Source: a virus. Taken from it: a stretch of 64,000 bases of DNA. Positions 139 through 58,243 of the stretch are shown here, one piece after another. The translations under genes were made by a program, and so were the position numbers. The notes under the pieces were generated by a model. That model saw nothing but the letters and a program-made list of their open reading frames with translations. It ran no database searches and was not told where the DNA came from. Each line of letters opens with the position of its first letter. Positions within the stretch are counted from its first letter, which is position 1. The stretch is from positions 30,063 to 94,062 of IMG/VR virus record IMGVR_UViG_3300045988_058617; one strand, 5' to 3'.

Positions 139-488
139 AATTTAGCAAAATCTTCCTTGACTTTAGCTTTTATCTATTTTAATATGTTAAGATATTCCTT
201 ATATTCATTAATAACTTCAGAATCAGAAGTAAGATTTTCTGAATAGCTATTATATGAATTGATTAAATCAAATTCTTCATCAACTGTAAGGAATCTTCTA
301 ACTATAGCTTTTACACAATCTTTGTAATTAGGCTGCCCATTTAATAATACCTAGATAAAACTATAGTAAGTTTTTTCTTTTATGGTATTGTCTAAATCAA
401 GTACTTCAACACTAATTTCTTTTATATCATAGTTATAGTAATAAGTACCGTTCCCAAGTTTTTGGATTGTCTAAGGATAAACGTCCAT
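135..488 (-). CDS. Hypothetical protein immediately downstream of the DGR reverse transcriptase (about 117 aa). It has three in-frame TAGs and ends with TGA.
   Basis: Manual minus-strand translation from the ATG at 488–486 gives a continuous ORF to the TGA at 137–135, with TAG as the only internal stop. It has no resemblance to Avd that I can see. Confidence 0.35.
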
Positions 489-1725: not shown

Positions 1726-1853
1726 CGGAAGCGTTCGAGAATTAACCTACTAACACCCTTCATTCAACACTACGTTATCTTTTGCCTAGAGGCAAGGATA
1801 TTACTTAGCAAACTAAAAAAAAATAATAAAATGTTTCTAAATATATAATAACT

Positions 1854-1948
1854 CGACATTGGAATTGGGCATTGCTGACGTCATTGTTAGAATTGAAATA
1901 GCTGAGACCTGCATTGCTGCCATTATTCGCGTTGCTGCCTACTAGCAG
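1854..1948 (-). repeat. DGR template repeat (TR).
   Basis: A 95-nt segment homologous to 2056–2149 and 29275–29368. TR is the AT-rich copy, and every substitution relative to both VRs falls at a TR adenine (minus-strand sense). It lies between the target gene stop and the RT start. Confidence 0.8.
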
Positions 1949-2026
1949 TACTTTTTTGCCAATCAACGGTTTTTAGAAGTAATATCCTACGATTTATCAT
2001 CTAAATCGATTTTTATATTGTATATC

Positions 2027-3400: not shown

Positions 3401-6400
3401 CTCATTTAGTGCTGTAAATTGCTCTTCTAGCTTAGAACTTGAATCTGCCCATTCAGCAGTACCATCTGCTGAGAAAACTAGCATCTATCCAGACTCTCCT
3501 CCAGATGGAATATGTTTATTTCCAGAAGTAGTTGGGTGTACATAATTATTAGCATTATTAGCTATAGTACTTAACTTTTCCTTCTCAGTTTCAGTATAAT
3601 TGGCTTCAGAAAGTCCCTTTCCTAACTCCTTATCTACTTTGCCTTCAAGCTCACCCTTAGTAGCTAATTCACTAATATCCTAATGCTCAGTCAAATATCC
3701 ACTATCATTCTGTAACTAAGAAGTTTTAGTTGGAATTGCATTAGCTTTGGCATATGTCGTATCTATAACATTTCCAGCACCATCGTAAGTAGCTTTTAAA
3801 TCGTATGTGGTTTCCCCAACCTTTATAGATTTGATTGCTGCCATATCATTGTATTATTAAAGTTTCACCAACTACATCGTGATCTATTCCCTCTATGGAA
3901 GCAGTTAGGTCCTCAACAGCCTTCTACAATTCTGCTTTAGTAGCATAGTTCTTGAGAACTTCCTAGTCTACTCCAGAGCCTCCTCCTATACTTCCTCCAA
4001 CAACTTTTACTGGTTTGGCAGAACTCTTAAACTGTCCTTCAATATAAATTGTTCCCATATTGTTTAAAATATTAATTGTTCATTTTCTCCATCTACCTCT
4101 ACACTAGAACCTGGCTATAAAGCGTCTATCTTTTTCTACAATTCGGCTACGGCCTAGCTAATTAGTTCTTCTACCTCAGCTTTGGTGTAGTATCTCTCTA
4201 TAAGATATTCGCTCCTAACATATCCAGTATCTTGTAAATCTTTTTCTCCATAGGTGCAATAATAAGTATCTTCTTCAGTCTTACTATTCTCAACTAGGTC
4301 ATCATAATCAGCTTGTGGTAAGCATACAAGTTTTGGTACTTCTTCAGTAATAGCAACTTGCTTGCCTCCAGCAAATAGCCTGTTATCTTCTGTGGTAAGT
4401 TTAACAGAACTCTCAATAACTTGCTCAGTTCCTGTTTCCTCAGAAGGTTCTCCAGTTGTTCCCTATTGTACTTCTTTTTCTCCAATTTTCTAAATAGTAA
4501 TATCAGAAGTTTCTACTGATGTAGATTTCAAAAGCTCAGTGCTAAATTCTTTAGCAGCAGCAGCCTAATCATCCTGATATTTTTTCTAGGTAACAAATAT
4601 GAAATCATCATCTCCGGTTTCAGGAGAGTCTCCCCTTAAACTTTCTTTTGTTACGTAATCTTCGGCTATCTAATCTGATAAATTAGATAATGACTATTGA
4701 GTAGCATAAGTAGACTGAGCATTTTCCTTAGTAAGAAATTTGTCATCAACCTGCTAAATAGTATAATAAGCCTTAATATCTTCTGTAGTAACGTAGTTTC
4801 CAAGTTTTTGCAAACCTTGAACTATTTCATCAATCTACTTCTTGGAGTAATAATTTGTAGCAACCCAGGACTGATATTGATTAGTAGTATGATAATTCTA
4901 ATCCAAATATTCCTTAGTAATATAAACCTTTGCATCATTTGTAACGTCATATACATAGTAATATGTATCAGGCTCTACCGTCCCTTCCTCTACTAACTTT
5001 AGATACTCTTCTTCAGTTAATGTTACTAAGTTCGGAATATCCGATTCAGTAGCAATCTAATCTTCACCTATAAATAATCCTTCAGACTTAACGTCTACTA
5101 CTAACTAGCCCTCTCCCTCCACTACAGGAGATTTTATCTACCCAACAGTGATGCTTTCTAAGGAGCCATCTCCATCTACCTTAAGAGTTTTATCTAACTC
5201 GTCTTGGATAGCCTACTAATCTTCCTCATATTCTTTCTTTGTAACGAAGACAAAATCATCTCCTTCCATTCCCTCTCCTCTAAGGCTTTCTTTAGTAACG
5301 AAAATATCGTTTGTTTCTTCCTTAGTATAATACTTAGTCAGTGATAGAGCTAAAGAATCGTTAGAGACATAATTAGTAGTTAATTCTTCCAGTGTAGCAT
5401 AATCTGATAGGCTAGCAATAGTGTTATCTAAGTCTGTTCTAATCTATACTACAGTAGTATTAAGAGCCTTCTATTTTAATTGCTCTTCTATCTTTTTCCC
5501 CCATTCCGCGGATAGGTAAAACTAGTTATCGTCTAAGCTATCCTCATATATATAATAATATGTCTCAGCATGAAGATATGGTTTACTTTCATCTATGGGC
5601 CTAAAATCGTCTGTAGTATTCTCAGACCATTCTTTATATTCAGCCTCTGTACAGGTGATTATCTAGATAGATTCATAGGATGCTTTCCATCCTTCCTTGT
5701 ATTTAATCTTAGACTTATCAATCAGCATATAAATATTTCCGTTATCTATGTTAGCAACGGTCATACCTTGATAAGCATACTTCTCTGGAATAGAATAAAG
5801 TTCGTCTAAGTTATTAATGACTGTTCTATTATCGAGAGGCTTCGGAGTTTCTACGGTTAAAGCGACACCTAAGGTAGCATCACCTGTATATTTAAATGCC
5901 ATTATTGTGATAAAGTAAAGTTAATTTGATGAGGCAATGCTGAGGAGTAAGTATCTTTCTTAGTCCATACCTTGTAAGTAAATCCATTTATCTACTCGGT
6001 AGACGTTTCCCAACCACTTAGGTCTACATTTAAATATCCAAGTCCTCCATCTACGGTAAATGAATTTAACTATGTGTTACTTCCTGGCAATTTTATAATA
6101 GCCTTACCACTTAGTGAAAATGTGATAGTTCCAGACGATTGTCCAAAAGGAACTAGCGCCTATTTAATCACACCATCAGTATTACCAGAATACCAAGGAT
6201 ATGTGGCTACTACCTAAGCGGTAGCGGAAATAGAACCAGCTTCTACTCTCTTATCTGTAACTTCTCCTTTATTATTTATCAAATATTCTCCAGCGGCATA
6301 ACTCACTGTACCAGAGTGAGTATAAGTACCAATAGAATTATATGTATCAGACTCTACAGGAGAACTGTTAGAAGTAATAGTTTCTCGTCTGTCAGTTTCT

Positions 6401-9400
6401 TCTCCAGCATCATTCTTTATAAATGTAAGTGTAGGAGTTAATAAAGCAGTTCCCACTTCTACTATTTGAGAAGTAAAACTATAATAAAGCTATGGGTATA
6501 CTAAATCTCTAACTACTGTTGGAAACAGTAAAGTATCAATAATTTCATTAAAGGGCTTGCCCTTAAGTTTCTCTACTGTAGTCCCTTCAATTACTGTTGA
6601 AGTAGTATCATCTGGGAGTTCCGTCTAATAAGTAGCTATAGTTTCTAAGTTAGTTTGTATATTAGTAATACTTTCAGTATTAGCTTCTACTTTAGTATTT
6701 GTCTCTTGTTGTGCTTCCTAAGTTTTCTATACTTCTTTCTTTGTTTCTTCTAGAGCAGGTTCAAGATTCTTAACATAGATACCTGGAAGGATAATAGAAG
6801 AGGTTTCCTCTCCAATCTCCTATTCTATTAAATGAATAGCATTATCTTCCTAAGTAGATAAAATCACCTCTAAGGAATTATTTTCCTTTAGTTCTATAGT
6901 TTTGGAATTTTGGAGACTATTCTTAATCCAATTAAGAATGTTTTTATCAACATCTATATTCTCAATAGCATTGTTCAACTCAACTATAGCTTCATTGATT
7001 TTTACTATTTCTTCAGATAGATTATTAATTCCTTTTCTATTAATATCAATTTCTCGCTGTAAATCCTCCTTCAATACAGATATAGAAGTTCTAATATTGC
7101 TTATATCGACTTTCAGTTCTTCTATTGCTTCTGTATTAGATTCATATTCGCTAATAAAGTATAGGGCATAGTCTAGGGCATCCTTCACAGTATTAATGCC
7201 TTCTGCAACGTCACTAGTATAGGTCCATTTTTGTTCTATATACTATACTAGGTCTTTTTGCAGTTCTATGGTTCCACTAATGTTTCCCCACAATAGACTC
7301 TACTCATCAGCAATACCTAAGTTCTTTCTTACTTTAGCTTTTTCTAGTTCTGTCCTATATTCTCCTAAATAGTTATTTCTTAAGAGAGGTATAGGCTCAC
7401 ATTTTATAGGCTTACCCTTTTTACCACAAGGCACTATATCTGCGTTACTTACCGAAGTGTAAATAGACTGTATCATTCTAGTTTAATAATTGCTATTTAA
7501 TAAATTCGTGATTATCTAGTCTTACAGGTAGGTTAATAAAACAAATTAGATTAAGAATATCTTGATAATCTGGTTTATATCCCTTTTTGAGTTTTCTTAG
7601 AAAATCCTCATACCTTTTAATAGCCTTTCTCTTAAGAGCATCCACAACCTATACGTTTATGTCCATGGTGGTGATTGTCACAGAATCCTCCACAGGTACG
7701 GAACATCGCTAGTAATCTTTCAGCCTCCATGAATTGTTTAAAGCATATTAAATAATCTATAATGTTAAGAGTCATCCATATGAAATCTCGAGCAAATATA
7801 AGTGCTTCCTAATCTCTAGTTAGACACTTATTTAGTAAAGCATCAAAGAGTTTCTTACAATAATTAATGTAACACTACTACAAGTTTCCTGTAAAGAAAA
7901 CATCTACCTTACATTTTTTTATAGTAGTTCCTTCTATGTTTCGTTCAAGAACTTCTTTAACTGTACACTCTTCTAGCTTACCTTCTACTTCTTTATATAA
8001 TTTTTCTCCATCAGTAACATAGATAGTCTCATAGTATTCCTTGTATTCGTCCGATGAATTTTCATACCATTTCATATTAGGAATAATGATATGGTCTACT
8101 ACGTAATAACCATCATCCTTGACCTTAAACATACACGAGTCTAAGTCTTCTGTATGGTCATTAAGTAGGACATCTATCAGAGTAGCATCGCTTATACTAA
8201 CTTTGATGATAGTATTCAAGGTAGCACTCTCACTATACTTATAGGAGTCGTAAGAAGTTACTACCTCTACATCTTCATCAATATACTAGCCATATTCTTT
8301 TGAGAAATCTTCTATCAGTATTTCCCCATTAATTTGGGTATGTATATCAATACTAAATTCCATATTGCAATAATATTAAGTGTTAGGCCATTGACCGTAT
8401 TGAGCTGGTGTAGAAAAAGGTCCCCACTTTCCAGATTGCTTTATACGTCTAGACATAAAAACAGAAGTAAAAGATAAACTAATATCTTGTGGATAGTCAG
8501 TCCAGGTATAAGACTATCCATCTGGAGTAGGAGGTAATTTATCAATCCCAGAGGAGGGCTGTCCATTCCAGTAGTAGTTATAGTCATAGGCTTTAATAGA
8601 GGTTACTTCTGTGGTTTCTCTCCCGTCAGAATCTATATAGAGAGGATCTCCTTTTTCATTCGTTTTTTGTTTATACTCTATAACTGGTGTTATTCCCTCG
8701 GTTCTAGTATATATAGTCTATATAATAGTAGAGACATCACTCGCTACTATTTCATAGATAGTAGTTCCCTATGATTCATCAGCTCCCTAAAAAGTAAATT
8801 TAGTTCTTTTCCATATATATGGATTCTCTTCTGTTGGAAGCTCAAAAGTATCAGACCACTACTTACTTGATAGTTTTATTTCAGATTCATTGGCAGTATT
8901 AGCAGGGAGATAATGTATTTTAATAATAATACTATTAACTGCTTCACTTGAACCGGATAAATCTGATACCTACTTAAATAATTTTTTTAAGTCGTCTTCT
9001 ACATTTGATTTAGAACCGGAAGCATTACTTATAATTACTGTCCCATCAGAGATAGGATAAATCTACTACTAATCTTTGTTGTATACAATTGTTCCAGTTG
9101 CCATATTAATGTATTTGTCTTATTTTGTCATTATATGGATTTCCATCATGAAGCTAAGCCAACTCTATTTCAGTTCTTTTTTCTTCAATATCCATTTGTC
9201 TATCTTTATAAGTAGAATCAGACTGAGCTTTAAGCCAGTTAACTTTATATTCTAACTGCATCTTCTACTATTCTAATCCCAGTCTCTATTCATCTAAGCT
9301 TTCAATCTTTTGCTGAGCTTTCTATAATTCTTGCTATAACTACTGAGCCTATTGAGAAGTTTCTTCTAATTTTTCTTGTAGTTGCTGAAGCTGATTATTT

Positions 9401-11218
9401 TCCTCTTTGCGAACTTGAACAGCTTTCTTAACCTTATATTTAAGGTCTGTCAGACTCTTAGATGTAAGAGCCTCAAAAATAATATCTGGATCCATCTGTT
9501 GACTTTTTACGAACTCTGGAATGATTGCTTTTATAGTCTATAAATCTTCCATCACTTCTGAACTAGCAGTAATATGAATATCGTAGTCAGTAACAGTAAA
9601 ATACTCAGGAAGTGCGGTGAATATCTGTTGATATTTATCCCCAAGTATAATAGTTCCAGTTAATCCTTTCTTATAAGTAACTTTAGCCTAATTAAGACTA
9701 TCTAGTAGTATCTCGCAGGTTATTAAATCCATCTGCTAAAAATAGTGCTTAGTTACTATATACGAGTTAGCTACTCCCTACTTAATATTAGTAACTGCAT
9801 CTCTAGTTTCTATACCGTTAAGTCGTTCCCTAAATACTCCAGTTATTGATGATGTAGTTTGTTCTACTGATTGAATAGCTAGTTCAATAGCCTATACAGC
9901 CTATGCTTTTAAGGTATCATCAAATCCGTTATATATCTAGTTTGGAGCTTGCTGTCCGTCATTCCTACCTTCTTGGCTTGAGTCTATCCACATGATACCA
10001 CCTTTTTTATAAGCTAACCATTTTTGTACTCGTTCTGGCCATTTAACTCCTAAGTTGGTAGGCAACAGAGACATATCCATAATAACTCCAGCAGTACCAC
10101 TATTAGCTATTAGATTATCTCTATAATAGTTTAATAAGTCGTATCTATCCTACAGATGTGCACATTTTAATATAAGAGAATAAGGCTACTAAGAGCGATT
10201 TAAGAAATATACTCCATTTACCGATAAAGAACAGAAGTTGGGATTATCTTTAGACCTCATAACAGTCTTGTCTAATCCTCTAAGAATATATATCTCTTCT
10301 CCTATTCTGATAGTATTGTATCTCTACATCACAAAATCATCATCTGTTTCAATCCATTCAACATCATAGACTGGGATTAACTAGAACCTATGAGCACTAT
10401 ATTCATTGTCTGGATAGCCGGGAATGGTTTCATGATTCTAATCTTCATTTACTACTGTACAAGTATCTCCATATACTCTTCTATAAACAGCAGCTGAATC
10501 ATCAGCTCGCCATTCATCTTTTAGTCTTCTTAAATCTTCTCTAGATATTTCTTTGCCATATTTAGCTAAAATCTAACTCTTACTCATCCACTTTCTTACT
10601 ACAACTCTATATGAGTTCCTTACATATGGAGATTCTGGATTTCTATCAACAAATGTATTAAGTGGGTTTAATACCTCTATTTCAATATTAGTTCCAGAAG
10701 CCGATGATTTCACTCTAAAGAATGTATAACCAGTAATTAATAAGTCTGTTAGTAACTAACGTAACTTAGTAATTAAATCGGTTTCTCTGGATTGCATAAT
10801 ATAATGTACTATATTCTAAGCTGCAATTTCATATTGAGAAATAAAGGATTGGTCAATATCCTATATAATTTTATCTAACTAAGTCTTTACAGCTTTATCA
10901 GTAATATCCTTGCCATCAATAAACTTAAGAATTGAATTACTTAAATGGTCTTTCAAAAACTTTACTATTCCCTTGGTTATTTCTAGCTATTTTTCTCTTG
11001 TTATATTACTGATAGTATCTGAATCTTTGCAAGAAATTTTCGGAAGTATAGGAGTTCCTAAATATTCTCCAACTAGAGCATCTACGTGTTTCTTTAATAA
11101 AGGCGTAAACTCTACCGAAGTGGGGCTACCTATTCCGAAGTTTTCTTCCAGATAACGGAACTATTCAGGATCTCTTTTACCATTATAATAATTATAAGCT
11201 TTCTGTAACTCATACTTA
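3400..11218 (-). other. Block of TAG-recoded late/structural genes on the minus strand (tail/fibre-like and coiled-coil-rich proteins). Individual gene boundaries are not resolved.
   Basis: Six-frame ORFs here are short (4294–4485, 5663–5902, 6214–6456, 6850–7188, 7878–8219). Each terminates at a TAG (cta on the + strand), never TAA or TGA. The sequence between them has coding-like codon periodicity. Confidence 0.5.
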
Positions 11219-11680
11219 TCATATACAAGTTCCGCAATAGCCTCGTTTGTCTTGTCTATTAATTCCTTCTCTTTCATAACATAAATTATGTTGTTCTGGA
11301 GGAAGTTTAGTAGCGTTATAATACTTAACTCTTTGCAACTTCCTACTTCTTAATTCTTCCTTAATAAATGGCAGAAATTCTTCGTCTGGTAAATCTGCTA
11401 TTATTACTAATGGCATTTCTGACCTATCAAAGTTAAAAGAGACTTTATACCCAACTGGGTCTAAACTCTCAATATCTAGTCCGCCTATATACTCCATTTT
11501 GTACAAGTCCCTCATATATTCTAGGATCACTTGTTTCAACTCTGTATGGGTCATCATATTCGTTTCTTTGCATATTAAGTTCAGGAGTTTTCTTAGTTGG
11601 AATAACTCCAAATCTTTTAATTCCTCTCTCGTCGTAATAGTAACCAAAATCTTGGAACTATTCAACTTCTTTCTCCACAA
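11219..11680 (-). CDS. Hypothetical protein ending in TGA; it overlaps the 3' end of terL in another frame. The real start is probably an internal ATG.
   Basis: ORF track, 153 aa. The terminal TGA at 11219–11221 was verified. Confidence 0.45.
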   Translation of the reverse strand: MWRKKLNSSKILVTITTREELKDLELFQLRKLLNLICKETNMMTHTELKQVILEYMRDLYKMEYIGGLDIESLDPVGYKVSFNFDRSEMPLVIIADLPDEEFLPFIKEELRSRKLQRVKYYNATKLPPEQHNLCYEREGINRQDKRGYCGTCI

Positions 11681-13832
11681 GTACGGGCTGTCTTCCTGAT
11701 AGCTCTTGGTCTGCTAACTCAGTCATACCTACAGCGGCTACAATATCATACTTACCCTTATTTTCATCATTATATGCAGTGAACTATTCTAGCATTTCTT
11801 CGAACCATATAGTATGGCAATAGTCTTCTATAAAGGCGGCTGTTAAATCAGTATGCTATTCGATTATAGTTTTTGTAGCAGGAGTTCCATACTATTTAGT
11901 AGTTCCATTTCTAACGTCAGTTAGAGTAGCTCTTGGGCGCTTCATAAAATAGTTAAGGCATCCTTTTTCTCTAGCCCAAGTAACCATACCCATACGAGTA
12001 GCTTCTATATTTATTTTACAATTATAATAGCGAGCTAAACACATAGCTATTTTATAGGCTTCTCTGATGTCTCCAGGTCTATCCTTGTACATAGCAACAT
12101 ACTGAGGGTCATTCATACCAAACGCACGTTTCTTAATCGTTATGCAGAAATCAGACGGGTCTCTGGTTTCCTTAGAAGTCTAATTCGCTCCAATATCAAT
12201 ACCGTCTATACCTGCTACATATAAGTCTCGCATCTCTTTATAAACTGGAACTTCAAAATCCTAGCCATTATCTTCTGCCTCCTATCTAAGCTTTTCCATT
12301 TGTTCTTTATATAAGTCAGACCATATTGGATGCTCTAGAATTTTTACTTTGCCATTCCTGTTAGGAATCCATTTAAAACCATCAATATTATCCTAAGTAT
12401 GTTTATTATTTTTGTAAAAATAATCAATATAACCACATTCGGGTCTTGGGCCAATTTGTTTAAGTCTTATATTAGCTATCTATTCGGCAACTAAAATTTT
12501 ATTAAACTTATTAACACCTTCTAGATTAAATGCTTCTTCTGCATTCCAACAACGTTCAGCGCATTTCTTTAGGTAGTCTTCTGGTACAGCTAACAGATTA
12601 TCTCGCTCCTCCTATAAGAATTTCTTATATTCCACAGTATTACATACTCCTCTGTGGTCCATAAATTCTGGATTCAAAGATTGTATAAAGTATGGAATAA
12701 AGAATCCACTCTCTATAGTAGTCCCATCCTAAGTCCAATTATGTCTAAATGGAAGAATCTTATATGCTCTTGGATTATAGTAAATCTTTTTTAAGCCCTC
12801 TAGAGGAGCACCCATATCACCGCCAGTACCTCCAAACAACATTGTTCCACGAGGCATACCTTGAACTTCACAAAGTTCTTGACCTTGTACCACAGCGGTA
12901 TCAAGTCCAGGCCAGGAACCAGCTTCATCATATATTAATAAATCTACACGGTCTCCACGAATGTTAGATGGTTTAGCTCCGTTAATTGCTACAACCTCAG
13001 ATTTAAATCCTACGTCTTCAAACTAACCATTTATTTTGATTTGTTTACCTGATTTCTTTCTCAAATCCTGGTCAATAAGTCGCAATTTAAAAAATCCTCC
13101 TCCAGTACAGGTATTTAAGAATGTAAGAGCATTGTCAAACTTACTAAAGGTACCCTTAAGGAAGGTATCATTAAAGCAAGTAATCATAACCCTACTTCTT
13201 CTAATAATAGAGTACATACGAGCAGAAAGAGAGGCGTTTATTTCAGAGAATCCAATAGAACGAGCTTTCATTAAAGCTGCGTGCTTGTGTAGCACCCTAG
13301 CCATCTATAGATAATGAAAGAACGTATAATGTGATGCAAAGAATATTGGGAAGTCATTATCAGTACCCTCACCAGAGGCTTTCTACTAGTCAATAGTAGG
13401 TAACTAATAGAAATTTAAGAAGAAGTAATTATCTCCAGTAATGGTGTATCCATTAACTGTCATTCCATACTTACATCTTCTATATTGCTCTTTCCAAAAT
13501 TCGTTGTACCGCTTACTATCTCTAAGGTAGGGACAGTATTGACCAGTTCGTTTATATACTTCCCTAGTCTCGGTAAACCAATCTGGATTAAAGTCCAATC
13601 CATGAGTTTCGTCAATAGGTCTGTATCCAGTTATTTCATAAGATAAGGTAGGGTCAAATACTTCTATTTTATCTCCTATTTTAACATCCCAATAGTCAGA
13701 ATTTCTGACCCTTTCCTCTCTTATTTTCTATACTAATTCTCTAGCTTCTTTAGCATCCTCTTTCTATTCTTTTTCTCTTACCTAATCTACAATATTCTAT
13801 ATTTCTTCAGGTAATATCTTTTTTCTTGGCAT
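11616..13832 (-). CDS. terL: Terminase large subunit, about 738 aa, with many in-frame TAG codons (amber-recoded).
   Basis: Frame-0 ORFs 11892–12116, 13023–13304 and 13404–13598 are joined only by TAGs. Manual translation gives MPRKKILPEEI(Q)NIVD… from ATG 13832–13830, and a Walker-B/catalytic motif …RVDLLIYDEAGSWPGLD… near 12930. The frame terminates at TAA 11616–11618. Confidence 0.8.
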
Positions 13833-14432
13833 AATTAAAAGTCTCCTGGGTCAAAACCATCCACAGCTCCAGCTCTAACAGTAGATTGTTCAGTAAGTTC
13901 TTTCTTAACCTAGTCTTCTAGTGTTATGAGTTCTTCATGAACTTTGTGAAGGGTAGCCATTTCCTTCATTACTTTTTCAGCCTGGAATACTGGCTTGCCG
14001 TTATTATCACGCTCATTTAAATCTACAATAGTTTCGAAATAATCAATAAACTAGTCTGCAGCTCTTTTAGCTGCTTCCAGTAATTTTATTGACTTGTTTG
14101 AATCTTGTAACGCTCTGTACTTCCTACAGGCTTCTCTAAATATAGGGTCGTTAAATTCCGACTCTGTCAATCCAGAATCACTAATAGCTTCGTCATGTCG
14201 TTCATGTTCCGAATACTAACTGTACGGACTTTTCCAGTCTATAGCTAAATAAATGTAAGATAGTTCTCTAGTAGCTCTATCCTTTTCTGCAGATTTATCC
14301 CTCTAGATTAAAGCCTTAAATTCCTTAACTAGCAATATCTCTGGTTCATTTATTTCTAGCTATTTAGTTAAAGTGTTATAGTTAAATACATTCATAATCA
14401 TTAATCATTATCATACACATTAGATAATCTTA

Positions 14433-14567
14433 TTATTTCTTTTTCATTTTGGAACCGCACTTATTGACTTTCATTTTTGAGCCACAAGCGTCTTTCTTAG
14501 CATATTGTTTTCTGTCAGGAACCCATTTTCCTCCCTGGAAATTACCCTTATGTCCTTTATTGGCCAT
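14433..14567 (-). CDS. Small, very basic protein (about 44 aa, MANKGHKGNFQGGKWVPDRKQYAKKDACGSKMKVNKCGSKMKKK).
   Basis: Manual translation, below the ORF-track size cut-off. Its function is unknown. Confidence 0.3.
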   Translation of the reverse strand: MANKGHKGNFQGGKWVPDRKQYAKKDACGSKMKVNKCGSKMKKK

Positions 14568-14648
14568 AGTTTCCTAATCATTGTATTTATTGATTGATAT
14601 AGAATCTCTTGAGGCTTCGTCTCTAGCAGATTTCATATCTTTCTTATA

Positions 14649-15914
14649 CTAAGCTCTTCCTGCCTTAAATTTATCAACTTCATTAGCTTTCTTAGTAACT
14701 TTAGTTCCTTTTTGTGCTTTCTGGCAAGCTTTACAGATTCTACCGCCTTGCTTAAAATATACAAGCTCTTCTCCTTCTGGACATACTCCTTTTAGCTTCT
14801 TATAATACTCAAGCTTAGCTCCAAGCCTAGCCATTACTCCTCCTTGCATTTTCTGCATAAATTCCTGATACTTAGCTTTAATGCCGTCTTCACCTAATTG
14901 TTCAGCATAAGCTTGTAAATCCTGTTCAGACTATATCTGAACTCCCTATGACTGCGCATCCTATATTAAATATGCCACAAACGCTTTTTGTAATTCTTGT
15001 TGATTATTCATTGTTCCTCCTTGTTGAAATTTAGTTGTAGGTCCCGGAGATAATGTTAATGGTTCAGCTTCTGATTTTCTAGAATTCCATACATCTCCAA
15101 GATAATTAAATAATCTCAACCTCCTATGTATCCCAAAATCTCCTCCTTGTACTGTATTTCCCATAGTATATCTACTAGTGGCCTGTACAGGATTTACTTT
15201 AGGCTTACTTGAAGGCTACTCGGCTCTTGTCTATTCACTAGCTGGCTAACGGCCTCCTGTAATAGTTGGTATTCCTCTACCCCAAGTAGTTCCTTTTGTT
15301 GTAGCAATTAGGTCTGGAGATTCTATACTAATCTAAGTACCTAACTAAGGAATCTGAATGGCAGAAGGTTGTTTAGGCTTACTTGAAGGCTACTCGGCTC
15401 TTGTCTATTCACTAGCTGGCTAACGGCCTCCTGTAATAGTTGGTATTCCTCTACCCCAAGTAGTTCCTTTTGTTGTAGCAATTAGGTCTGGAGATTCTAT
15501 ACTAATCTAAGTACCTAACTAAGGAATCTGAATGGCAGAAGGTTGTTTAGGCTTACTTGAAGGCTGTCCTAAGTCTGTAGTATATACAGAATTTCCCCAC
15601 ATAAACTGTTTTAGTCCTCTCTCTCTAGCAGCCCTAAAAGCTGTCTTAAAATCTTTAACACCTCTTAAATCATCCTAAGCTATTTCAGCAGTAGGAAGAG
15701 GTTCTAATCTTGTGGGTAATGAAGGCATTTCTGGAGCATCAAAATATGTCTCTTGTAACTTAGGCATTTTCTATTGTGCGGTTCTTCTAATAATGTCTGG
15801 ATTAGTTGCCCAAGTCTAATGCAACTACCTCAAGGTTCTCTCATCTAAGTCCGCATCTCCGTAAATAATTTTGATATTACGCATCAATTCAGGGTCAAAC
15901 TACACTTTAGCCAT
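14649..15914 (-). CDS. Late protein (recoded) containing a tandemly duplicated 58-aa P/T/Q/S-rich segment. The 3' boundary is uncertain.
   Basis: ATG at 15914–15912 (MAKV(Q)FDPELMRNIK…). The frame-0 ORFs 14961–15164 and 14649–14858 continue the same frame across TAGs. The gene carries the 174-bp repeat. Confidence 0.45.
15201..15566. repeat. Perfect 174-bp tandem direct repeat: 2 full copies plus an 18-bp third copy, in-frame within a late gene.
   Basis: Units 15201–15374 and 15375–15548 are identical. 15549–15566 restarts the unit and then diverges. 174 nt is 58 codons. Confidence 0.85.
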
Positions 15915-15916
15915 TA

Positions 15917-16069
15917 CTCTTCTACTTTAATTAAATCCTTAGTATTAAACACTGCTTCCTACATAAGTCCGGAATCAGTAAACCATCTACATCTTAATCC
16001 TCGTAATCCTTGGTTATCTTTAAATAAAGCTGCTTCTCTTCTTAGAACAAGCATAACTGGAGAGTGCAT
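15917..16069 (-). CDS. Small hypothetical protein (about 50 aa) with one in-frame TAG.
   Basis: Manual translation: MHSPVMLVLRREAALFKDNQGLRG…. Confidence 0.25.
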
Positions 16070-20594: not shown

Positions 20595-20611
20595 AACTAT
20601 TAATTTTGGCG

Positions 20612-20683
20612 TTGCCCTACTAGGATTCGAACCCAGACTAAATGATTTAGAGTCATCTGTGCTGACCATTACACCATAGGGCA
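20612..20683 (-). tRNA. Amber-suppressor tRNA, anticodon CUA (reads UAG), with a Gln-tRNA-like scaffold.
   Basis: Manual fold: acceptor TGCCCTA/TAGGGCA, D arm GTGT-AATGGTCA-GCAC, anticodon stem GATGA/TCATT, loop CTCTAAA (U33, CUA, A37), T arm CTGGG-TTCGAAT-CCTAG. Its overall architecture is almost identical to tRNA-Gln(UUG) at 33540. Confidence 0.8.
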
Positions 20684-42391: not shown

Positions 42392-42952
42392 GGGCCTACT
42401 TGGATTTGACAGGCGATTACGAATTATAAGGACGTGTAGAGCGCAATCTCTTTAAACGAAGAAAACAAATAACTGCAGAAATTGCACCTGTAAGAATGGC
42501 AGCCTAAGCTGCTGACTTATTAATAGACAATATTAATCAAGTCGGGTTAATGGGGAGACCTAGAAACAGAAGAGGTTTGTATCTAAGTGTTATAACGAGA
42601 CCTTCAGGGAAGAATCATAGTACCTACAGGTTACAGTGAAGCTTAGATGCATTAACTTGAAAGCCAAAGGTTAGTAGAGCTGAAATCTCCACTGCCTATC
42701 TATGGGCTACAAATAGACGTTCTCCAACGTAAATGGAGTGGTGGAAGAATGACTTCTAGTCAGCCCCCAGTTTGGTAGTTTGTAAATTAGTTAGTAGGAG
42801 GACTGCTGGTTCACCTCTACTGTAAAGAATCCAGCTCTTCTAATAAAACTATCTAAATGCTAGAACTCACTAGCTGATGTAATAAAAATGAGACGCACGT
42901 TATCCTTGTAATAAGGGTTGTTTGGACACGGGTTCGACTCCCGTTAGGTCCA
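42392..42952 (+). ncRNA. ssrA: tmRNA-like gene (ssrA-like). Candidate tag reading frame GCA GAA ATT GCA CCT GTA AGA ATG GCA GCC TAA (…AEIAPVRMAA*) starts about 82 nt in.
   Basis: The 5' end GGGCCUACUUGGAUUUGACAGGCGAUUACGAA matches E. coli ssrA GGGGCUGAUUCUGGAUUCGACGGGAUUUGCGAA. The 3' end GGACACGGGTTCGACTCCCGTTAGGTCCA matches GGACGCGGGUUCAACUCCCGCCAGCUCCA. The 5' GGGCCTA pairs with the 3' TAGGTCC, with a G3·U70 pair. The 561-nt span has no ORF. Confidence 0.65.
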
Positions 42953-42978
42953 CATGACAGGGCTATAGTTCAACCGAT

Positions 42979-54011: not shown

Positions 54012-54224
54012 ATGGTCGAGAAAAACTTAATTAAGGCATTTGTTGCCGTTCTATTAATCGTTGTAATTTACAACGTCAGCTTATGGTTATTATCCGAATC
54101 ATTGTATGCTGCAAATATCTTGGGGTTGTTACTATTACTAGTGGCAATCCCAAGTTTAGTTTATAGGATATTCAAATATATTAAGAAACATTATTTAAAT
54201 AAGGAAAATGAAGACAATTATTAA
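54012..54224 (+). CDS. Small membrane protein.
   Basis: ORF track, 70 aa. Confidence 0.4.
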   Translation: MVEKNLIKAFVAVLLIVVIYNVSLWLLSESLYAANILGLLLLLVAIPSLVYRIFKYIKKHYLNKENEDNY

Positions 54225-55035
54225 GCTTTTGTGTGTATTAACTTTGGTGTTTGGCTTGTCTAGTTGTGGCTACGAGAGAATTGATGCTGGTTACGAAGGC
54301 ATTAAGGTGAAGCTATACGGAGACGGTAAGGGAGTAGACGATGTGTCTCTTGTTACTGGCGCGGTGTGGTATAATCCTGTTACTACGGCTGTATATGAAT
54401 ATCCTACATTCGTACAGACTGTGGACTATCCTCCTTTCAGTATTAATGCTAAAGATGGATCATCATTTACTGTAGACCCTACAATTTCTTTGAAGATTGT
54501 TGACGGGAAATCACCAGAAGTATTTAAGAAGTATAGAAAGGAAGATATTGTAGAGGTAATTAACACTACTTTGTATAATTACGTAAAGAATGCTTTTCGC
54601 ATTCAGCTGAATAACTATACTACTGATGAACTAGTAAGTAAACGTGAGGAGTTTGAGAAGTCTATAGAAGATAGACTGTCAAAGGAACTCTTGGCTGAGA
54701 ATTTTCAGCTTGAACAAATGACTTCTGGTCTTCAATATCCACAGACGCTAGTCAATTCTATTGATGCTAAGAATGCTGCAATTCAACAGGCTTTGAAGGC
54801 AGAGAATGAAGTTAAGACTATTGAGGCAGAAGCTAAAAAGAAAGTAGCAGCTGCACAAGGAGAGGCAGAAGCTCTTAAGATTAAGGGTGATGCAGAAGCT
54901 GAATATAATAGAAAGATTTCAGCATCTTTATCAGTTCTCATAGTTCAGCAGGATATGATTAAGAAGTGGGATGGAAAACTTCCTACTTATGGTCAGGTTC
55001 CCACCTTATTTAAAGACGTAGCTAATAACAAATGA
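54208..55035 (+). CDS. SPFH/band-7 (prohibitin/HflC-like) lipoprotein.
   Basis: ORF track, 275 aa. It has an LSSC lipobox, an SPFH-like core and a C-terminal AEAEAKKKVAAAQGEAEALKIKGDAEAEYNRK segment typical of band-7 proteins. Confidence 0.5.
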   Translation: MKTIIKLLCVLTLVFGLSSCGYERIDAGYEGIKVKLYGDGKGVDDVSLVTGAVWYNPVTTAVYEYPTFVQTVDYPPFSINAKDGSSFTVDPTISLKIVDGKSPEVFKKYRKEDIVEVINTTLYNYVKNAFRIQLNNYTTDELVSKREEFEKSIEDRLSKELLAENFQLEQMTSGLQYPQTLVNSIDAKNAAIQQALKAENEVKTIEAEAKKKVAAAQGEAEALKIKGDAEAEYNRKISASLSVLIVQQDMIKKWDGKLPTYGQVPTLFKDVANNK

Positions 55036-55379
55036 TGTATCTAGTAATATGCACTGTGATGGTAATCATCACGGTGCTTATCTTGAAAGATACCCATGTA
55101 ACCGTTTATTACAATGGGTATAGCAGAAGTGTGGCACTTATAGAAGAAGACTATGACCTTAAAGTTCCAGTGTGGCTAGTTTTAGTAATACTAATCCTAG
55201 GATTTATCCCAGTACTGAACATTATGCTATACACAGTAGGATATTTATTCTATATAGTTCATGCTGTGTGGAATCCAGACAAGTTGTCTGGATATACACA
55301 TAAGTTCAATCTAAGAGGAAATAATTTTCTAACTAGAATAGTGAAGAAGATATGGAAATTCTTAAATGTATGTGTATAA
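55032..55379 (+). CDS. Small membrane protein.
   Basis: ORF track, 115 aa. Confidence 0.45.
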   Translation: MMYLVICTVMVIITVLILKDTHVTVYYNGYSRSVALIEEDYDLKVPVWLVLVILILGFIPVLNIMLYTVGYLFYIVHAVWNPDKLSGYTHKFNLRGNNFLTRIVKKIWKFLNVCV

Positions 55380-55876
55380 CACTGAGACATCTTAGGCGAA
55401 TACTTAGACATAAGTTTTGGGTAGCTTATTACTGTTTTCAGTTAGGTTTATACAAACAGGGCATCTTGCACGACTTATCTAAATTCGGATGGTATGAGTT
55501 CTCTCGTTCTGTAAAATTTTACGATGATGACACATCTCCCTTAAACAAGGAAAAAGAAATTCTAGGATATTCTAGGTCTTATTTACATCACAGAGGAAGA
55601 AATCCACACCATTATGAATACTGGGTAACTAAGCTAGACATTGGCGGTGTTCCAGTGAAGATGCCTAAAGAGTATGCTCTAGAATTGGTATGCGATTATC
55701 TGGCTGCTGGTAAAGTATACAACGGTAATAGTTTTCAAGGAGAATATAACTGGTGGATTAAGTATATAAATTCTCCTAGGGCTATCCATCCAGAAACGAA
55801 GGAATTTATCACTCAGTGTTTTAAGAATTTAGCTAGTGGTAAAGGCATGAAAAGTTTATTAACAATTAGTTATTAA
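55352..55876 (+). CDS. Hypothetical protein.
   Basis: ORF track, 174 aa. Confidence 0.5.
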   Translation: MEILKCMCITLRHLRRILRHKFWVAYYCFQLGLYKQGILHDLSKFGWYEFSRSVKFYDDDTSPLNKEKEILGYSRSYLHHRGRNPHHYEYWVTKLDIGGVPVKMPKEYALELVCDYLAAGKVYNGNSFQGEYNWWIKYINSPRAIHPETKEFITQCFKNLASGKGMKSLLTISY

Positions 55877-56090
55877 AATAATTTTTAGAATGGAAATAAT
55901 TAATGCAACAGATGGCTATAAATTGGGCCACCATAGAATGTATCCAGAAGGTACTGAACAAGTTTACAGTAATTAGACTCCTAGAAGTAACAAATACTTT
56001 CCAGAAGCCACTGAAGGTTCTGTAGTATTCGGAATCCAATATTTAATTAAGAAGTATCTGATTGATGAATTTAATCAGAATTTCTTTGGA

Positions 56091-57164
56091 TTGCCCAAAG
56101 AGAAAGCTGTAGAAATGTTTTATCGAAGAGTTCATAACTTCGTGGGAATTGAGTCCGTAGGATATAAACATATTGAAGCCTTGTATGATTTAGGTTATCT
56201 TCCCATTCGCATTAAAGCGTTGCCAGAAGGTTCTGTATGTCCTATCAGAGTTCCCATGATGACTATTACTAATACAAAGTCAGAGTTCTTCTGGTTAACT
56301 AATTATCTAGAGACTTTGATTAGTTGTACTCTGTGGATGCCTTGCACTTCTGCTACTAGAGCAAGACTCTATAAGAAGGAACTTAAAAGACACGCAGTAC
56401 ATACTGGATTTCCAGAAGATGTAAATCTGGATTTCTTGTGTCATGACTTCTCTATGAGAGGAATGGCTGGTTTAGAGGCTGCTATCATTTCTGGTATGGC
56501 ACATATGACTTCGTTTGTTGGAAGTGAGACCATTCCAGCTATTGCTGCTCTAGAAGAATATTATGGTGCAAATTCTGACAATGAATTAATTGCTGCTACT
56601 GTTCCAGCTACAGAACATTCTGTAATGTGTGCTGGTGGAGAAGAGGATGAACTTCAAACCTTTAAGCGATTAATTAACGAATTGTATCCATCTGGGTTCG
56701 TTTCTATAGTTTCTGATACTTGGGACTTCTGGAATGTTATTGAAAACTTCCTTCCCAAATTAAAGAAGGATATTATGGCTCGTGATGGACGTGTAGTTAT
56801 TCGTCCAGATAGCGGAGACCCCGTTGATATTATTTGTGGACTGAGAACTAATCCTCACTTCCATACTAGGATGAAAGAGGGTAAGTATTATTGTTGCTAT
56901 GCTCCATTTAACGATGATGCTGAGTATGTAGAAGTGTCAGAGGGTCAATATTACGGAGCATATTATATGCTTGGTAAGATATTCGGCTGGAATATTACTT
57001 CTAATACTTTATCTGCTCCAAACATTAGTAGTTCTATATTCTCTAAATCTAAGAAACCTTATTACAATATCCTCCTAGATGATAGGGCAGGTCTAGAAGA
57101 AAGTTATGAAATCTTAAAATATGTAGTAGATGAAATTAAACTTAATCAACAAGGAAATCAGTGA
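56091..57164 (+). CDS. nadV: Nicotinamide phosphoribosyltransferase (NadV/NAMPT-like).
   Basis: ORF track, 357 aa. It has …GSETIPAIAA…ATVPATEHSVM…VVIRPDSGDP…, characteristic of the NAMPT/NAPRTase family. Confidence 0.55.
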   Translation: MPKEKAVEMFYRRVHNFVGIESVGYKHIEALYDLGYLPIRIKALPEGSVCPIRVPMMTITNTKSEFFWLTNYLETLISCTLWMPCTSATRARLYKKELKRHAVHTGFPEDVNLDFLCHDFSMRGMAGLEAAIISGMAHMTSFVGSETIPAIAALEEYYGANSDNELIAATVPATEHSVMCAGGEEDELQTFKRLINELYPSGFVSIVSDTWDFWNVIENFLPKLKKDIMARDGRVVIRPDSGDPVDIICGLRTNPHFHTRMKEGKYYCCYAPFNDDAEYVEVSEGQYYGAYYMLGKIFGWNITSNTLSAPNISSSIFSKSKKPYYNILLDDRAGLEESYEILKYVVDEIKLNQQGNQ

Positions 57165-57931
57165 AATTAAGTACGATGTTACTAGATTTCCTGATGGAGA
57201 GCCTCAGTTTTTCCTTACTGAGGAATTAAACAGAAAGGAATCTATTGATGTCATTTGTAGAATATCTAATACTGAGGATTTATTCCTCTTAATGCAAGTA
57301 GGAGATATTTTAGATAGACAAGAAGTAGAATGGGATTACTTATTTAATGTCTATGCGTATGGATAGAGTAATGAGTTTTAATCGTCCATTCTCCTTGAAA
57401 GTAGTATGTAATATGTTAAATAGCTTAGGCTATAGAAACATATATGTTCTTGAGGCACATTCTAGTAGAACTTTTCATCTTCTTGGTGACAGATGTTTAC
57501 CTTGGGAATTTGGACACTACTCTTGGATTCCAGCCCAAAGTAATATCGTGTTCCCAGACCATGGGGCGAAGGACAGATATGGAAGTAACTATTCTCACTA
57601 TGGTTATTTAGTCTTCAAAAAGGAAAGAAATCTAGAGACTGGAAGAATTGAGTCCTTTGAAATAGAGGAGTCTAAGAATTGCTACTATTCTACATTTGTG
57701 TTCATTGATGACTTGTGTGATGCTGGAGGAACTTTCCTAGGAGAGCTTAAGGTTCTCAAAGAGAGATATCCAAATAGCAAGTTTATCATAATCGTATGTC
57801 ATGTAGTTAATGATAAAGGCCTGGTTAATATGTGTAATAATTTTGACCAGGTTATTGTATCTAATTCTCATAGGGATATTAATTATCGTCCCAGCAACGA
57901 GAACTTAACTGTAATAGACGTTTGTAAATAA
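57130..57931 (+). pseudogene. prs: Ribose-phosphate pyrophosphokinase (PRPP synthetase, Prs) gene split into two ORFs (57130–57366 ending at TAG, and 57347–57931) by a +1/−2 frameshift at the TAG.
   Basis: ORF1 …RFPDGEPQFF…DYLFNVYAYG* matches the Prs N-terminal domain. ORF2 MSMRMDRVMSFNRPFSLKVVCNMLNSLGYRNIYVLEAHS… and …VFIDDLCDAGGTF… match the Prs middle and PRPP-binding regions. The ORFs are in frames 1 and 2 and overlap at ggaTAGagta. Confidence 0.55.
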
Positions 57932-57940
57932 CAAAATAAA

Positions 57941-58243
57941 ATGGTAATTGAAGGTCCTTTTTACAGACTTACTCCCATTAGTGAATCTTCTCCGAGGTTT
58001 GACTTGGAATTGTTGTATGATATTGGTGGGAAAAATCCGAGAAAAGAATTTAAAGTGGAGGGCTACGGCTATCCCCTAGAAGCTGCTATAGAGCGATGTC
58101 GCCATTATGCAGTAAGAAAAAAGTTCGGAAAAGATGAAGTTATAACTTTAGGTAGGTACTTAGATGAGTTTAAAAAGGCAAAGGAGGAAATTAAACTCGA
58201 AGTCTCAGGAGATTCAGGAGATTCTAGCGGAGAGGCTGAATAA
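57941..58243 (+). CDS. Hypothetical protein.
   Basis: ORF track, 100 aa. Confidence 0.45.
   Translation: MVIEGPFYRLTPISESSPRFDLELLYDIGGKNPRKEFKVEGYGYPLEAAIERCRHYAVRKKFGKDEVITLGRYLDEFKKAKEEIKLEVSGDSGDSSGEAE

What the first reader, a model, noticed from the sequence alone, without database searches (positions are those of the whole stretch)
56091..57931. NAD salvage module: NadV (NAMPT) followed by a PRPP synthetase whose frame breaks exactly at a TAG
NadV (with …GSETIPA…RPDSGDP…) is followed by Prs. The Prs N-terminal domain ends …NVYAYG-TAG, and the homologous sequence (RMDRV…RPFSLKVV…VFIDDLCDAGGT) resumes in the +1 frame overlapping the TAG (ggaTAGagta). A +1 shift at an in-frame stop is the classic prfB-type programmed-frameshift configuration, so this may be regulated rather than broken. 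Phage NadV/Prs pairs regenerate NMN/NAD+ and have been linked to countering NAD-depleting defence systems.
Basis: partly seen in the sequence, partly recalled or inferred. Interest (0 to 1): 0.6.

Follow-up and report, generated by a model that had tools for sequence, protein, structure and literature searches.

The report
Decayed phage NAD-rebuilding (NARP1) operon
This stretch is the broken remnant of a known phage counter-defence operon (NARP1, which rebuilds NAD+ from ADP-ribose); the frame break in its second gene comes from a private 8-base deletion, not from a programmed frameshift at the TAG.

Summary
The two gene families are really there, and the Prs-like gene really is split over two frames. 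The split is not at the TAG. Homology changes frame at 57334-57337, 30 nt upstream, where the window lacks 8 nt (ATTTACAC) that all 29 close relatives have. All 26 relatives that cover the whole gene carry one uninterrupted 269-codon gene. TAG 57364-66 is just the first stop met in the wrong frame.

The 'NadV' is also broken, in two ways. A conserved Trp codon is TAG (55974-76). A ~700-nt deletion (junction 56991-57004) removes its catalytic C-terminal part and most of a small HAD-type phosphatase gene that lies between the two genes in relatives.

The genes are the Namat/Adps type, i.e. NARP1 (Osterman et al. 2024); crAss-like orthologues are listed in that paper's tables.

A separate Logan assembly of run SRR341596 is identical over 56109-58149, including both deletions, so an assembler artefact is unlikely.

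The phage reads TAG as sense in its late genes and carries a tRNA-CUA, which weakens the prfB analogy further.

Verdict: a recently pseudogenised NARP1 locus of a known kind, of low interest. Two side observations are worth keeping: NARP1 lesions recur across this clade, and the HAD phosphatase is linked to NARP1 in two unrelated phage groups.

The parts
55890..57004 (+). Namat (NAMPT-like nicotinamide ADP-ribose transferase) remnant, roughly codons 1-372 of a ~516-codon gene. It keeps GSETIPA and RPDSGDP. It lacks the C-terminal YGDSI, GVGSYSYQY (selectivity-clamp helix), SRDSLGFA and KxPKTDDGTK segments.
   Evidence: tblastn with intact relative L026: Namat residues 1-378 at 55890-57023, 94% identity. 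Best solved structure is SPbetaL1 Namat 9W5X, E 3e-113, against human NAMPT 1e-52.
55974..55976 (+). In-frame TAG at codon 29, replacing the conserved Trp codon TGG (YSNWTPRS).
   Evidence: Relatives L001, L022, L026, L030, L031, cr126_1 and cr111_1 have TGG/W here, and SPbetaL1 Namat has W34.
56991..57004 (+). Junction of a ~700-nt deletion (703 nt against L026, 715 nt against L025). It sits at an imperfect 14-nt direct repeat, AATAYTACTTCTAA, present once in Namat (GWNTTS) and once in the HAD gene (ANITSN). It fuses the two genes in frame.
   Evidence: The two blastn HSPs overlap at query 1112-1125, which is window 56991-57004. Both sites are shown in L025 and L026.
57005..57164 (+). 3' remnant of the small HAD-type phosphatase gene (the last 57 codons when counted from 56991; ...KKPYYNILLDDRAGLEES...), ending at TGA 57162-64.
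   Evidence: 100% identical to L026 HAD residues 89-145. The gene is intact (136-145 aa) between Namat and Adps in cr126_1, cr111_1 and most close relatives.
57130..57336 (+). Adps (Prs-like ADPR-PP synthetase) codons 1-69, in frame 1.
   Evidence: 100% identical to L026 Adps residues 1-69.
57334..57337 (+). Site of the 8-nt deletion. Relatives read GGG-ATTTACAC/T-ATTAC; the window reads GGG-ATTAC. An ATT repeat makes the exact placement ambiguous. This deletion causes the frame break.
   Evidence: Pairwise alignment with MT836666. All 28 IMG/VR relatives have the 8 nt. It is the single gap in every blastn alignment.
57335..57931 (+). Adps codons 72-269, in frame 2. This part contains RMDR, EAHS, PDHGA, KKERN and the PP loop DDLCDAGGTF. 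Stop TAA at 57929-31.
   Evidence: 99% identical to L026 Adps residues 72-269. The repaired protein hits phrog_619 at 1e-51.
57364..57366 (+). TAG, the first stop met in the wrong frame after the deletion. It is not a recoding signal.
   Evidence: Frame analysis. The same TAG triplet is present out of frame in the intact relatives.

Best explanation
The locus is a recently inactivated NARP1 operon (Namat, HAD-type phosphatase, Adps) in a TAG-recoding, crAss-like gut phage.

In intact relatives, by homology with the characterised enzymes, Adps pyrophosphorylates ADP-ribose to ADPR-PP. Namat then joins ADPR-PP to nicotinamide to rebuild NAD+, which offsets NAD+-depleting host defences.

In this genome three separate mutations have destroyed the operon:
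1. TGG to TAG at Namat codon 29.
2. A ~700-nt deletion between an imperfect 14-nt direct repeat. It removes the Namat C-terminal part, which carries conserved catalytic motifs and the clamp helix, together with about 60% of the phosphatase gene.
3. An 8-nt deletion in adps that shifts the frame just before the RF-loop segment (RMDR).

Shown here: the lesions, their absence from relatives, the family assignments and the TAG recoding.
Inferred: loss of function, and the activities of the intact enzymes (from homology with tested enzymes).
For: - Intact three-gene architecture in cr126_1 and cr111_1 and in at least 8 close relatives.
- The 8 nt are present in 28 of 28 IMG/VR relatives and in MT836666. 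All 26 relatives that cover the whole gene have an intact 269-codon ORF.
- The window's adps differs from its nearest relatives by 2 substitutions plus this single gap.
- Deletion junction and repeat.
- W to TAG.
- Namat assignment: 9W5X/9W5W are the best PDB hits, and the relative keeps the aromatic pair of the clamp helix (GSYSYQY against SPbetaL1 GSF392TYQY396).
- Adps assignment: phrog_619 at 1e-51; TIGR01251 scores 60.5 bits, below its cut-off of 113; the PP loop DDLCDAGGTF matches the Adps pattern D212-D213-I-C215-D216-x-A-A-S-F221.
- Osterman et al. list the cr126_1, cr111_1 and DAC15 orthologues as Adps and as Adps-associated Namat.
- A separate Logan assembly of SRR341596 is 100% identical over 56109-58149, including both deletions.
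Against: - No reads could be inspected, and the Logan contig may come from the same sample as the window. That would exclude an assembler artefact but not a minority variant.
- The deletion alleles were not found in IMG/VR or JGI metagenomes, so they look private to one strain.
- Loss of function is inferred from missing conserved segments, not measured.
- The TAG at codon 29 could be read as an amino acid late in infection, because the phage has a tRNA-CUA. That lesion alone is therefore not necessarily inactivating.
Confidence: 0.9

Rival explanations
1. Sequencing or assembly error. The real phage has an intact adps (and perhaps an intact Namat and HAD gene), and the 8-nt and ~700-nt gaps are artefacts.
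For: The deletion alleles are absent from IMG/VR and JGI metagenomes. Some lesions in relatives, such as C4 to C5 in L022 and L031, look like homopolymer errors, so errors do occur in such data.
Against: A second assembly (Logan, SRR341596) reproduces window 56109-58149 base for base, including both junctions. An 8-nt loss outside a homopolymer is not a typical read error. A 14-nt imperfect repeat is too short to collapse a k-mer assembly. Three separate lesions sit in one operon.
Confidence: 0.05
2. Programmed +1 ribosomal frameshift at GGA-TAG-A, of the prfB type, produces full-length Prs/Adps.
For: A stop codon lies in the zero frame while the +1 frame is open across it.
Against: - The frame change is explained by a deletion absent from all 29 relatives, which carry the gene in one frame.
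- Shifting at the TAG would give ...EVEWDYLFNVYAYG-RVMSF..., losing the conserved ITYLMSMRMD segment.
- The GGA codon cannot re-pair on GAU, and there is no Shine-Dalgarno-like motif in ATTACTTATTTAATGTCTATGCGTATGGATAG.
- Downstream folding is ordinary (z = -0.68).
- TAG is decoded as sense in late genes: 133 in-frame TAGs and a tRNA-CUA.
Confidence: 0.01
3. The two adps pieces, or the Namat-HAD chimera, are still expressed and useful. For example, the 194-aa C-terminal piece might re-initiate at ATG 57347 and act as a split or truncated enzyme or as a regulator.
For: ATG codons at 57347, 57353 and 57359 overlap the end of the upstream ORF, so coupled re-initiation is possible. The sequence downstream of the break is still 99% identical to relatives.
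Against: - Codons for the conserved segment I72-L75 (57335-57346) are translated in neither piece. No start codon exists in frame 2 between TAA 57290-92 and ATG 57347.
- The near-identity of the two pieces to relatives fits a very recent deletion, not purifying selection.
- The pathway partner Namat lacks its C-terminal catalytic part.
Confidence: 0.03

Closest known systems
NARP1 (NAD+ reconstitution pathway 1: Adps + Namat), Osterman et al. 2024, 'Phages reconstitute NAD+ to counter bacterial immunity' (bioRxiv 10.1101/2024.02.11.579819)
   Same: A Prs-like gene adjacent to a NAMPT-like gene in a phage. The NAMPT-like protein is closest to the crystallised SPbetaL1 Namat. Orthologues from crAss-like phages cr126_1, cr111_1 and DAC15 are listed as NARP1 in the paper's supplementary tables.
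   Different: - The gene order is Namat then Adps, with a HAD-type phosphatase gene in between. The published operons have Adps first.
- In this window all three genes are disrupted, so the locus is a remnant, not a working system.
NARP1-AP (NARP1 with the Macro-domain ADPR-1''-phosphate phosphatase Adpp), Osterman et al. 2026 (bioRxiv 10.64898/2026.01.28.702374)
   Same: A three-gene operon in which a phosphatase gene sits between or beside adps and namat.
   Different: The phosphatase here is a small capless HAD-type enzyme (DxDxT; BT0820/2OBB-like), not a Macro domain. Its substrate is unknown. Only its last 57 codons survive in the window.
NARP2 / KVP40-type NadV (Nampt) with Nmnat
   Same: A NAMPT-family enzyme used by phages to restore NAD+.
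   Different: NARP2 Nampt prefers PRPP and is paired with Nmnat, not with a Prs-like gene. The window's protein groups with Namat, and intact relatives keep the Namat-specific aromatic clamp helix.
prfB (RF2) programmed +1 frameshift
   Same: Only the superficial layout: a zero-frame stop codon with an open +1 frame across it.
   Different: There is no CUU-U-type slippery re-pairing and no upstream Shine-Dalgarno stimulator. The arrangement is not conserved, homology changes frame 30 nt upstream, and TAG is a sense codon in part of this genome.

Membership tests
NARP1 | An Adps-clade gene and a Namat-clade gene in immediate proximity in a phage genome. | tested here: met
   Remnants of both lie within 2 kb (55890-57931). 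Relatives carry both genes intact and adjacent. The crAss-like orthologues are listed as NARP1 by Osterman et al..
NARP1 | Both enzymes are intact and catalytically competent, giving a functional pathway. | tested here: not met
   Namat has TAG at codon 29 and has lost residues from ~373 onwards. Adps is frameshifted at codon 70. The locus is a pseudogenised member, not a working one.
Namat (nicotinamide ADP-ribose transferase) | Closer to characterised Namat than to PRPP-using Nampt. | tested here: met
   SPbetaL1 Namat 9W5X scores 381.7 bits (E 3e-113). Human, rat and mouse NAMPT score about 180 bits, and a bacterial homologue scores 151 bits. The PDB identifiers are confirmed as Namat in PMC12774641.
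Namat (nicotinamide ADP-ribose transferase) | Selectivity-clamp helix with two aromatic residues (SPbetaL1 F392 and Y396) that stack on the adenine of ADPR-PP. | tested here: not met
   The region is deleted in the window. The intact relative L026 has GSYSYQY aligned to GSF392TYQY396, so the lineage has the feature and this copy lost it.
Namat (nicotinamide ADP-ribose transferase) | Catalytic-core Arg (SPbetaL1 R306, human R311) in the RPDSGDP motif. | tested here: met
   VVIRPDSGDPVDIICG is present at about 56800-56830 and aligns with the 9W5X motif.
Adps (ADPR-PP synthetase) | A Prs-like fold that falls outside bona fide Prs and inside the phage clade linked to Namat. | tested here: met
   The repaired protein scores 60.5 bits on TIGR01251, below the cut-off of 113. 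Pfam Prs domains fall below threshold. phrog_619 hits at 1e-51. tblastn finds 1373 phage records annotated as Prs, including Felixounavirus, Kayvirus and ICP1. No phylogeny was built here.
Adps (ADPR-PP synthetase) | Remodelled PP loop (D212-D213-I-C215-D216-x-A-A-S220-F221) and a catalytic Lys on the beta-hairpin (K185). | tested here: met
   The window has IDDLCDAGGTF, with the Cys and Phe that canonical Prs lacks (DDIISTGGT and DDMVDTAGT in the alignments), and FKKERNLETG. This rests on motif inspection; the structure was not superposed.
Adps (ADPR-PP synthetase) | ADPR + ATP gives ADPR-PP. | not testable with these tools
   A biochemical assay is needed, and the gene is frameshifted in this genome in any case.
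prfB-type programmed +1 frameshift | The frameshift site is conserved among homologues. | tested here: not met
   0 of 29 relatives show any frame break. All 26 that cover the whole gene carry one 269-codon ORF.
prfB-type programmed +1 frameshift | A slippery P-site codon that allows +1 re-pairing, an upstream Shine-Dalgarno-like stimulator, and a poorly decoded stop. | tested here: not met
   GGA to GAU gives no re-pairing. No GGAGG or AGGGGG lies within 30 nt upstream. TAG is decoded as sense in late genes, with a phage tRNA-CUA.
HAD-superfamily phosphatase (gene of the 57005-57164 remnant) | The four HAD motifs (DxDxT; S/T; K; DD) on a Rossmann-like fold. | tested here: met
   In intact homologues D31, D33, T35, K110, D118 and D119 are invariant. 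The AF2 model has pLDDT 92.5, and its best PDB match is BT_0820 (2OBB), probability 0.99. There is a weak NF046079 hit. The window retains only motifs III and IV.

The most novel reading that the evidence does not exclude
In this gut-phage clade NARP1 is normally a three-enzyme pathway whose middle gene is a small HAD-type phosphatase. That enzyme would be a non-homologous counterpart of the Macro-domain Adpp, feeding a phosphorylated ADP-ribose derivative into Adps. The pathway is being knocked out repeatedly and independently: 6 of the 13 relatives that cover all three genes, plus partly covered L027 and this window, carry different lesions. That pattern would mean the pathway is costly or counter-selected in some hosts, not merely drifting. 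The window would be the most degraded example.
Probability: 0.2. Interest if true: 0.55.

Novelty: already known. Interest (0 to 1): 0.2.

Why it matters
The finding shows that an apparent 'frameshift at a stop codon' in a stop-codon-recoding phage is an ordinary private deletion, and that the module is the published NARP1 counter-defence pathway, not a PRPP/NMN salvage pair. Annotators should call such NAMPT/Prs pairs Namat/Adps and should check close relatives before proposing recoding.

Two by-products may be of use. First, the natural knock-out series of NARP1 in one phage clade could show when this counter-defence is dispensable. Second, the recurrent HAD-type phosphatase in NARP1 operons of crAss-like and Bacillus phages is a testable candidate for a further pathway extension.

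Tried and rejected
1. Looked for the deleted alleles elsewhere. The prs junction was searched in IMG/VR (all 28 matches carry the 8 nt) and in JGI metagenomes (none). The Namat-HAD junction was searched in IMG/VR and JGI (none). Only the exact-protein look-up found a second contig (Logan SRR341596). A further look-up with the 192-aa C-terminal piece returned an ENA scaffold that starts at the gene edge, so it says nothing about the deletion.
2. Tested the frameshift signals. There is no Shine-Dalgarno-like motif, no slippery codon and no unusual downstream structure. The promoter and terminator scan showed nothing notable. Rfam found nothing in 55-58 kb.
3. Tried to work out which amino acid TAG encodes.
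   - The tRNA-CUA is most similar to the phage tRNA-Gln, but only at 71%.
   - Late-versus-early amino-acid composition was uninformative.
   - TAG positions in TerL align mostly with E, Q and K in homologues.
   - The result is compatible with Gln but not proven, and TAG is not Trp. W29 to TAG is therefore not a synonymous recoding.
4. Considered a functional split Adps and rejected it, because the conserved I72-L75 segment is encoded in neither piece.
5. Considered that the window is ancestral and the relatives gained 8 nt. Rejected, because the distant cr126_1, cr111_1 and DAC15 are also in one frame with a homologous segment.
6. Pfam gave no hit for the middle gene. The annotation 'phosphoheptose isomerase' (phrog_1238, RefSeq) is not supported by the motifs or the fold.

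Full report
**What is in the sequence**

The window is part of a crAss-like gut phage.
- The NAD module matches MT836666 (human faeces) at 89% nucleotide identity. It matches the corresponding modules of Steigviridae crAss-like phages cr126_1, cr111_1 and DAC15/17 at about 68-71%.
- The large terminase is only 25-28% identical to those of named Crassvirales.
- The first hits Pfam NAMPT_N and NAPRTase. The Prs-like pieces hit Pribosyltran domains only weakly.

**Where the frame really breaks**

- In cr126_1 and cr111_1 the Prs-like gene is a single 269-codon ORF.
- Aligned with MT836666, window 57071-57931 is about 99% identical, with one indel. The relative reads GAATGGG-ATTTACAC-ATTACTTATTT, and the window lacks those 8 nt at 57334-57337.
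- A pattern scan of IMG/VR that allowed a gap of 0-8 nt found 28 relatives. All have the 8 nt (25 ATTTACAC, 3 ATTTACAT). All 25 that contain the whole gene have an uninterrupted 269-codon ORF.
- The window's gene differs from the nearest relatives by 2 substitutions plus this gap.
- With an intact relative (L026) as query, residues 1-69 map to frame 1 (57130-57336) and residues 72-269 map to frame 2 (57335-57928).
TAG 57364-66 is just the first stop in that wrong frame, 30 nt after the lesion.

**The programmed-frameshift idea**

- It fails on conservation: none of 29 relatives has a frame break.
- It fails on product: a shift at the TAG would omit ITYLMSMRMD, which begins the RF loop of Adps.
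- It fails on signals. GGA cannot re-pair on GAU. No Shine-Dalgarno-like motif lies upstream. Downstream folding is ordinary, z = -0.68.
- TAG is not a reliable stop in this phage.
  - The 13 minus-strand late ORFs of 150 or more codons that lie below 21 kb (433-15926 and two further ORFs up to 18194) hold 133 in-frame TAGs.
  - A tRNA with anticodon CUA lies at 20611-20683. It is most similar to the phage tRNA-Gln.
  - Only 3 of 49 plus-strand ORFs of 100 or more codons end in TAG.

**The partner gene is broken too**

- The NAMPT-like gene starts at ATG 55890, not at the TTG at 56091.
- Codon 29 is TAG, where every relative and the crystallised SPbetaL1 enzyme have Trp (YSNWTPRS).
- At 56991-57004 the window jumps from Namat codon ~372 (GWNITS) to codon ~89 of the next gene (ANITSN). 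The jump crosses an imperfect 14-nt direct repeat and deletes 703-715 nt, depending on the reference.
- The resulting ORF is a chimera. It lacks the Namat YGDSI, GVGSYSYQY, SRDSLGFA and KxPKTDDGTK segments. It ends with the last 57 codons of a small HAD-type phosphatase gene.

**Artefact or real**

- The exact 78-aa N-terminal fragment, which includes the out-of-frame tail, occurs on a Logan contig from run SRR341596.
- That contig is 100% identical to window 56109-58149 and so spans both deletion junctions.
- This argues against an assembler artefact. It may come from the same sample as the window, and reads could not be inspected.
- Neither junction occurs in IMG/VR or JGI metagenomes, so the alleles look private to one strain.

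**What the module is**

- The N-terminal 371 residues of the NAMPT-like protein match PDB 9W5X/9W5W at E 3e-113, against 1e-52 for mammalian NAMPT. These entries are SPbetaL1 Namat (PMC12774641).
- The intact relative keeps the two aromatic residues of Namat's selectivity-clamp helix.
- The repaired Prs-like protein fails the NCBIfam Prs threshold (60.5 bits against 113) but fits the phage family phrog_619 at 1e-51. It carries the Adps-type PP loop DDLCDAGGTF.
- Osterman et al. list the cr126_1, cr111_1 and DAC15 orthologues as Adps and as Adps-associated Namat.
- The module is therefore NARP1: Adps makes ADPR-PP from ADPR and ATP, and Namat joins it to nicotinamide to give NAD+. It is not a PRPP/NMN salvage pair.
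The enzymology is not.

**Interpretation**

- This is a recently pseudogenised NARP1 operon. It carries three independent lesions, with almost no other divergence from intact relatives.
- The inference that it is non-functional rests on the loss of conserved catalytic segments and was not measured.
- The TAG at codon 29 might be read through late in infection, but that would not rescue the deleted C-terminus.

**Side observations**

a) Lesions are common in this clade.
- Among the 13 relatives covering all of Namat, L030 has AGA to TGA at codon 16. L022 and L031 have a C4 to C5 insertion at codon 19-20, which is possibly a read error. L001 and L011 have large deletions.
- L017 and L027 have 5-nt and 8-nt deletions in the HAD gene.
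- adps itself is intact in all relatives.

b) The middle gene has a consistent link to NARP1.
- It is annotated 'phosphoheptose isomerase' but is a capless HAD-type phosphatase. DxDxT, Lys and DD are invariant. The AF2 model has pLDDT 92.5, and its best PDB match is BT_0820 (2OBB).
- It lies between Namat and Adps in several crAss-like lineages. It lies directly after Adps-Namat in Bacillus Wphvirus phages Zuko and BPS10C.
- The published NARP1 accessory genes are a Macro-domain phosphatase and RyDEP. A literature search found no paper linking a HAD phosphatase to NARP1.

c) The window also holds a tmRNA-like gene and a tRNA with anticodon UUA.

**Verdict**

The locus is a decayed copy of a known system. 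Interest is low.

Noticed in passing
window 433-15926 (minus strand) and 20611-20683 (-): The late-gene block is unreadable under the standard code. With TAG read as sense, it resolves into long ORFs holding 6-28 in-frame TAGs each: 133 TAGs across the 13 late minus-strand ORFs of 150 or more codons (below 21 kb), including portal and TerL. A tRNA with anticodon CUA, most similar to the phage tRNA-Gln, lies next to the block. Plus-strand (early) genes almost never contain or end in TAG.
   Followed up: partly
window 23597-23666 (+): A tRNA with anticodon UUA (ochre-suppressor type; Rfam tRNA 57.3 bits), although TAA is the main stop codon of the window's genes (31 of 49 plus-strand ORFs). Its role is unexplained.
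   Followed up: no
window 42392-42955 (+): A tmRNA-like gene. It matches Rfam RF00023 at 68.8 bits (gathering score 47) over the full model, with a canonical T-arm and acceptor end and a possible tag reading frame, AEIAPVRMAA-UAA (my own reading of the sequence in the alignment). It has large insertions, and ARAGORN did not call it. It sits in the 21-45 kb tRNA-rich region (23 ARAGORN tRNAs plus 4 extra Rfam tRNA hits).
   Followed up: partly
window 57005-57164 (remnant); intact in L026:3092-3526, L002:4467-4892, L003:4349-4780, L033:3983-4393, L034:3965-4357: A small (~140 aa) capless HAD-type phosphatase (BT0820/2OBB-like), mis-annotated as 'phosphoheptose isomerase'. It is embedded between Namat and Adps in crAss-like phages and lies directly after Adps-Namat in Bacillus Wphvirus phages. 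It is a candidate NARP1 accessory enzyme that no paper found in my literature search describes. Lak megaphages also encode it, but far from their NAMPT-like gene.
   Followed up: partly
loci L001, L011, L017, L022, L027, L030, L031 (relatives of window 55890-57931): Independent lesions in the NARP1 operon of close relatives: a nonsense codon, 5-nt and 8-nt deletions, large deletions and one homopolymer insertion. Their adps genes all stay intact. This suggests frequent loss of the pathway in this clade, though some lesions could be sequencing errors.
   Followed up: partly
L035:1916-3517 (also L036-L038): Another crAss-like lineage, seen in several Japanese DRR3347xx runs, has an in-frame TGA exactly at a conserved Trp of Namat (TTL*LPMTS against TLWLPMTS). 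This fits TGA-to-Trp recoding. Gene callers split the gene into 151-aa and 379-aa ORFs.
   Followed up: partly
window 55352-55876 (+) and 54208-55035 (+): The genes directly upstream of the NARP1 remnant are a DUF5662 protein (Pfam 1.5e-28) and, by my reading of its sequence and by analogy with the annotated neighbours in cr126_1 and L035 (not scanned here), an SPFH/Band-7-like protein. In cr126_1 and L035 a Band-7 gene lies downstream of the module instead, so the neighbourhood is rearranged.
   Followed up: no
window 11469-13850 (-): The large terminase is only 25-28% identical to those of named Crassvirales and 43-45% identical to unclassified gut phages MT835470 and MT835539. The phage belongs to a poorly described crAss-like group, even though its NARP1 module resembles that of Steigviridae. 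This hints at module exchange. Consistent with a mosaic, Namat is ~81-97% identical to relatives while adps is ~99%.
   Followed up: no
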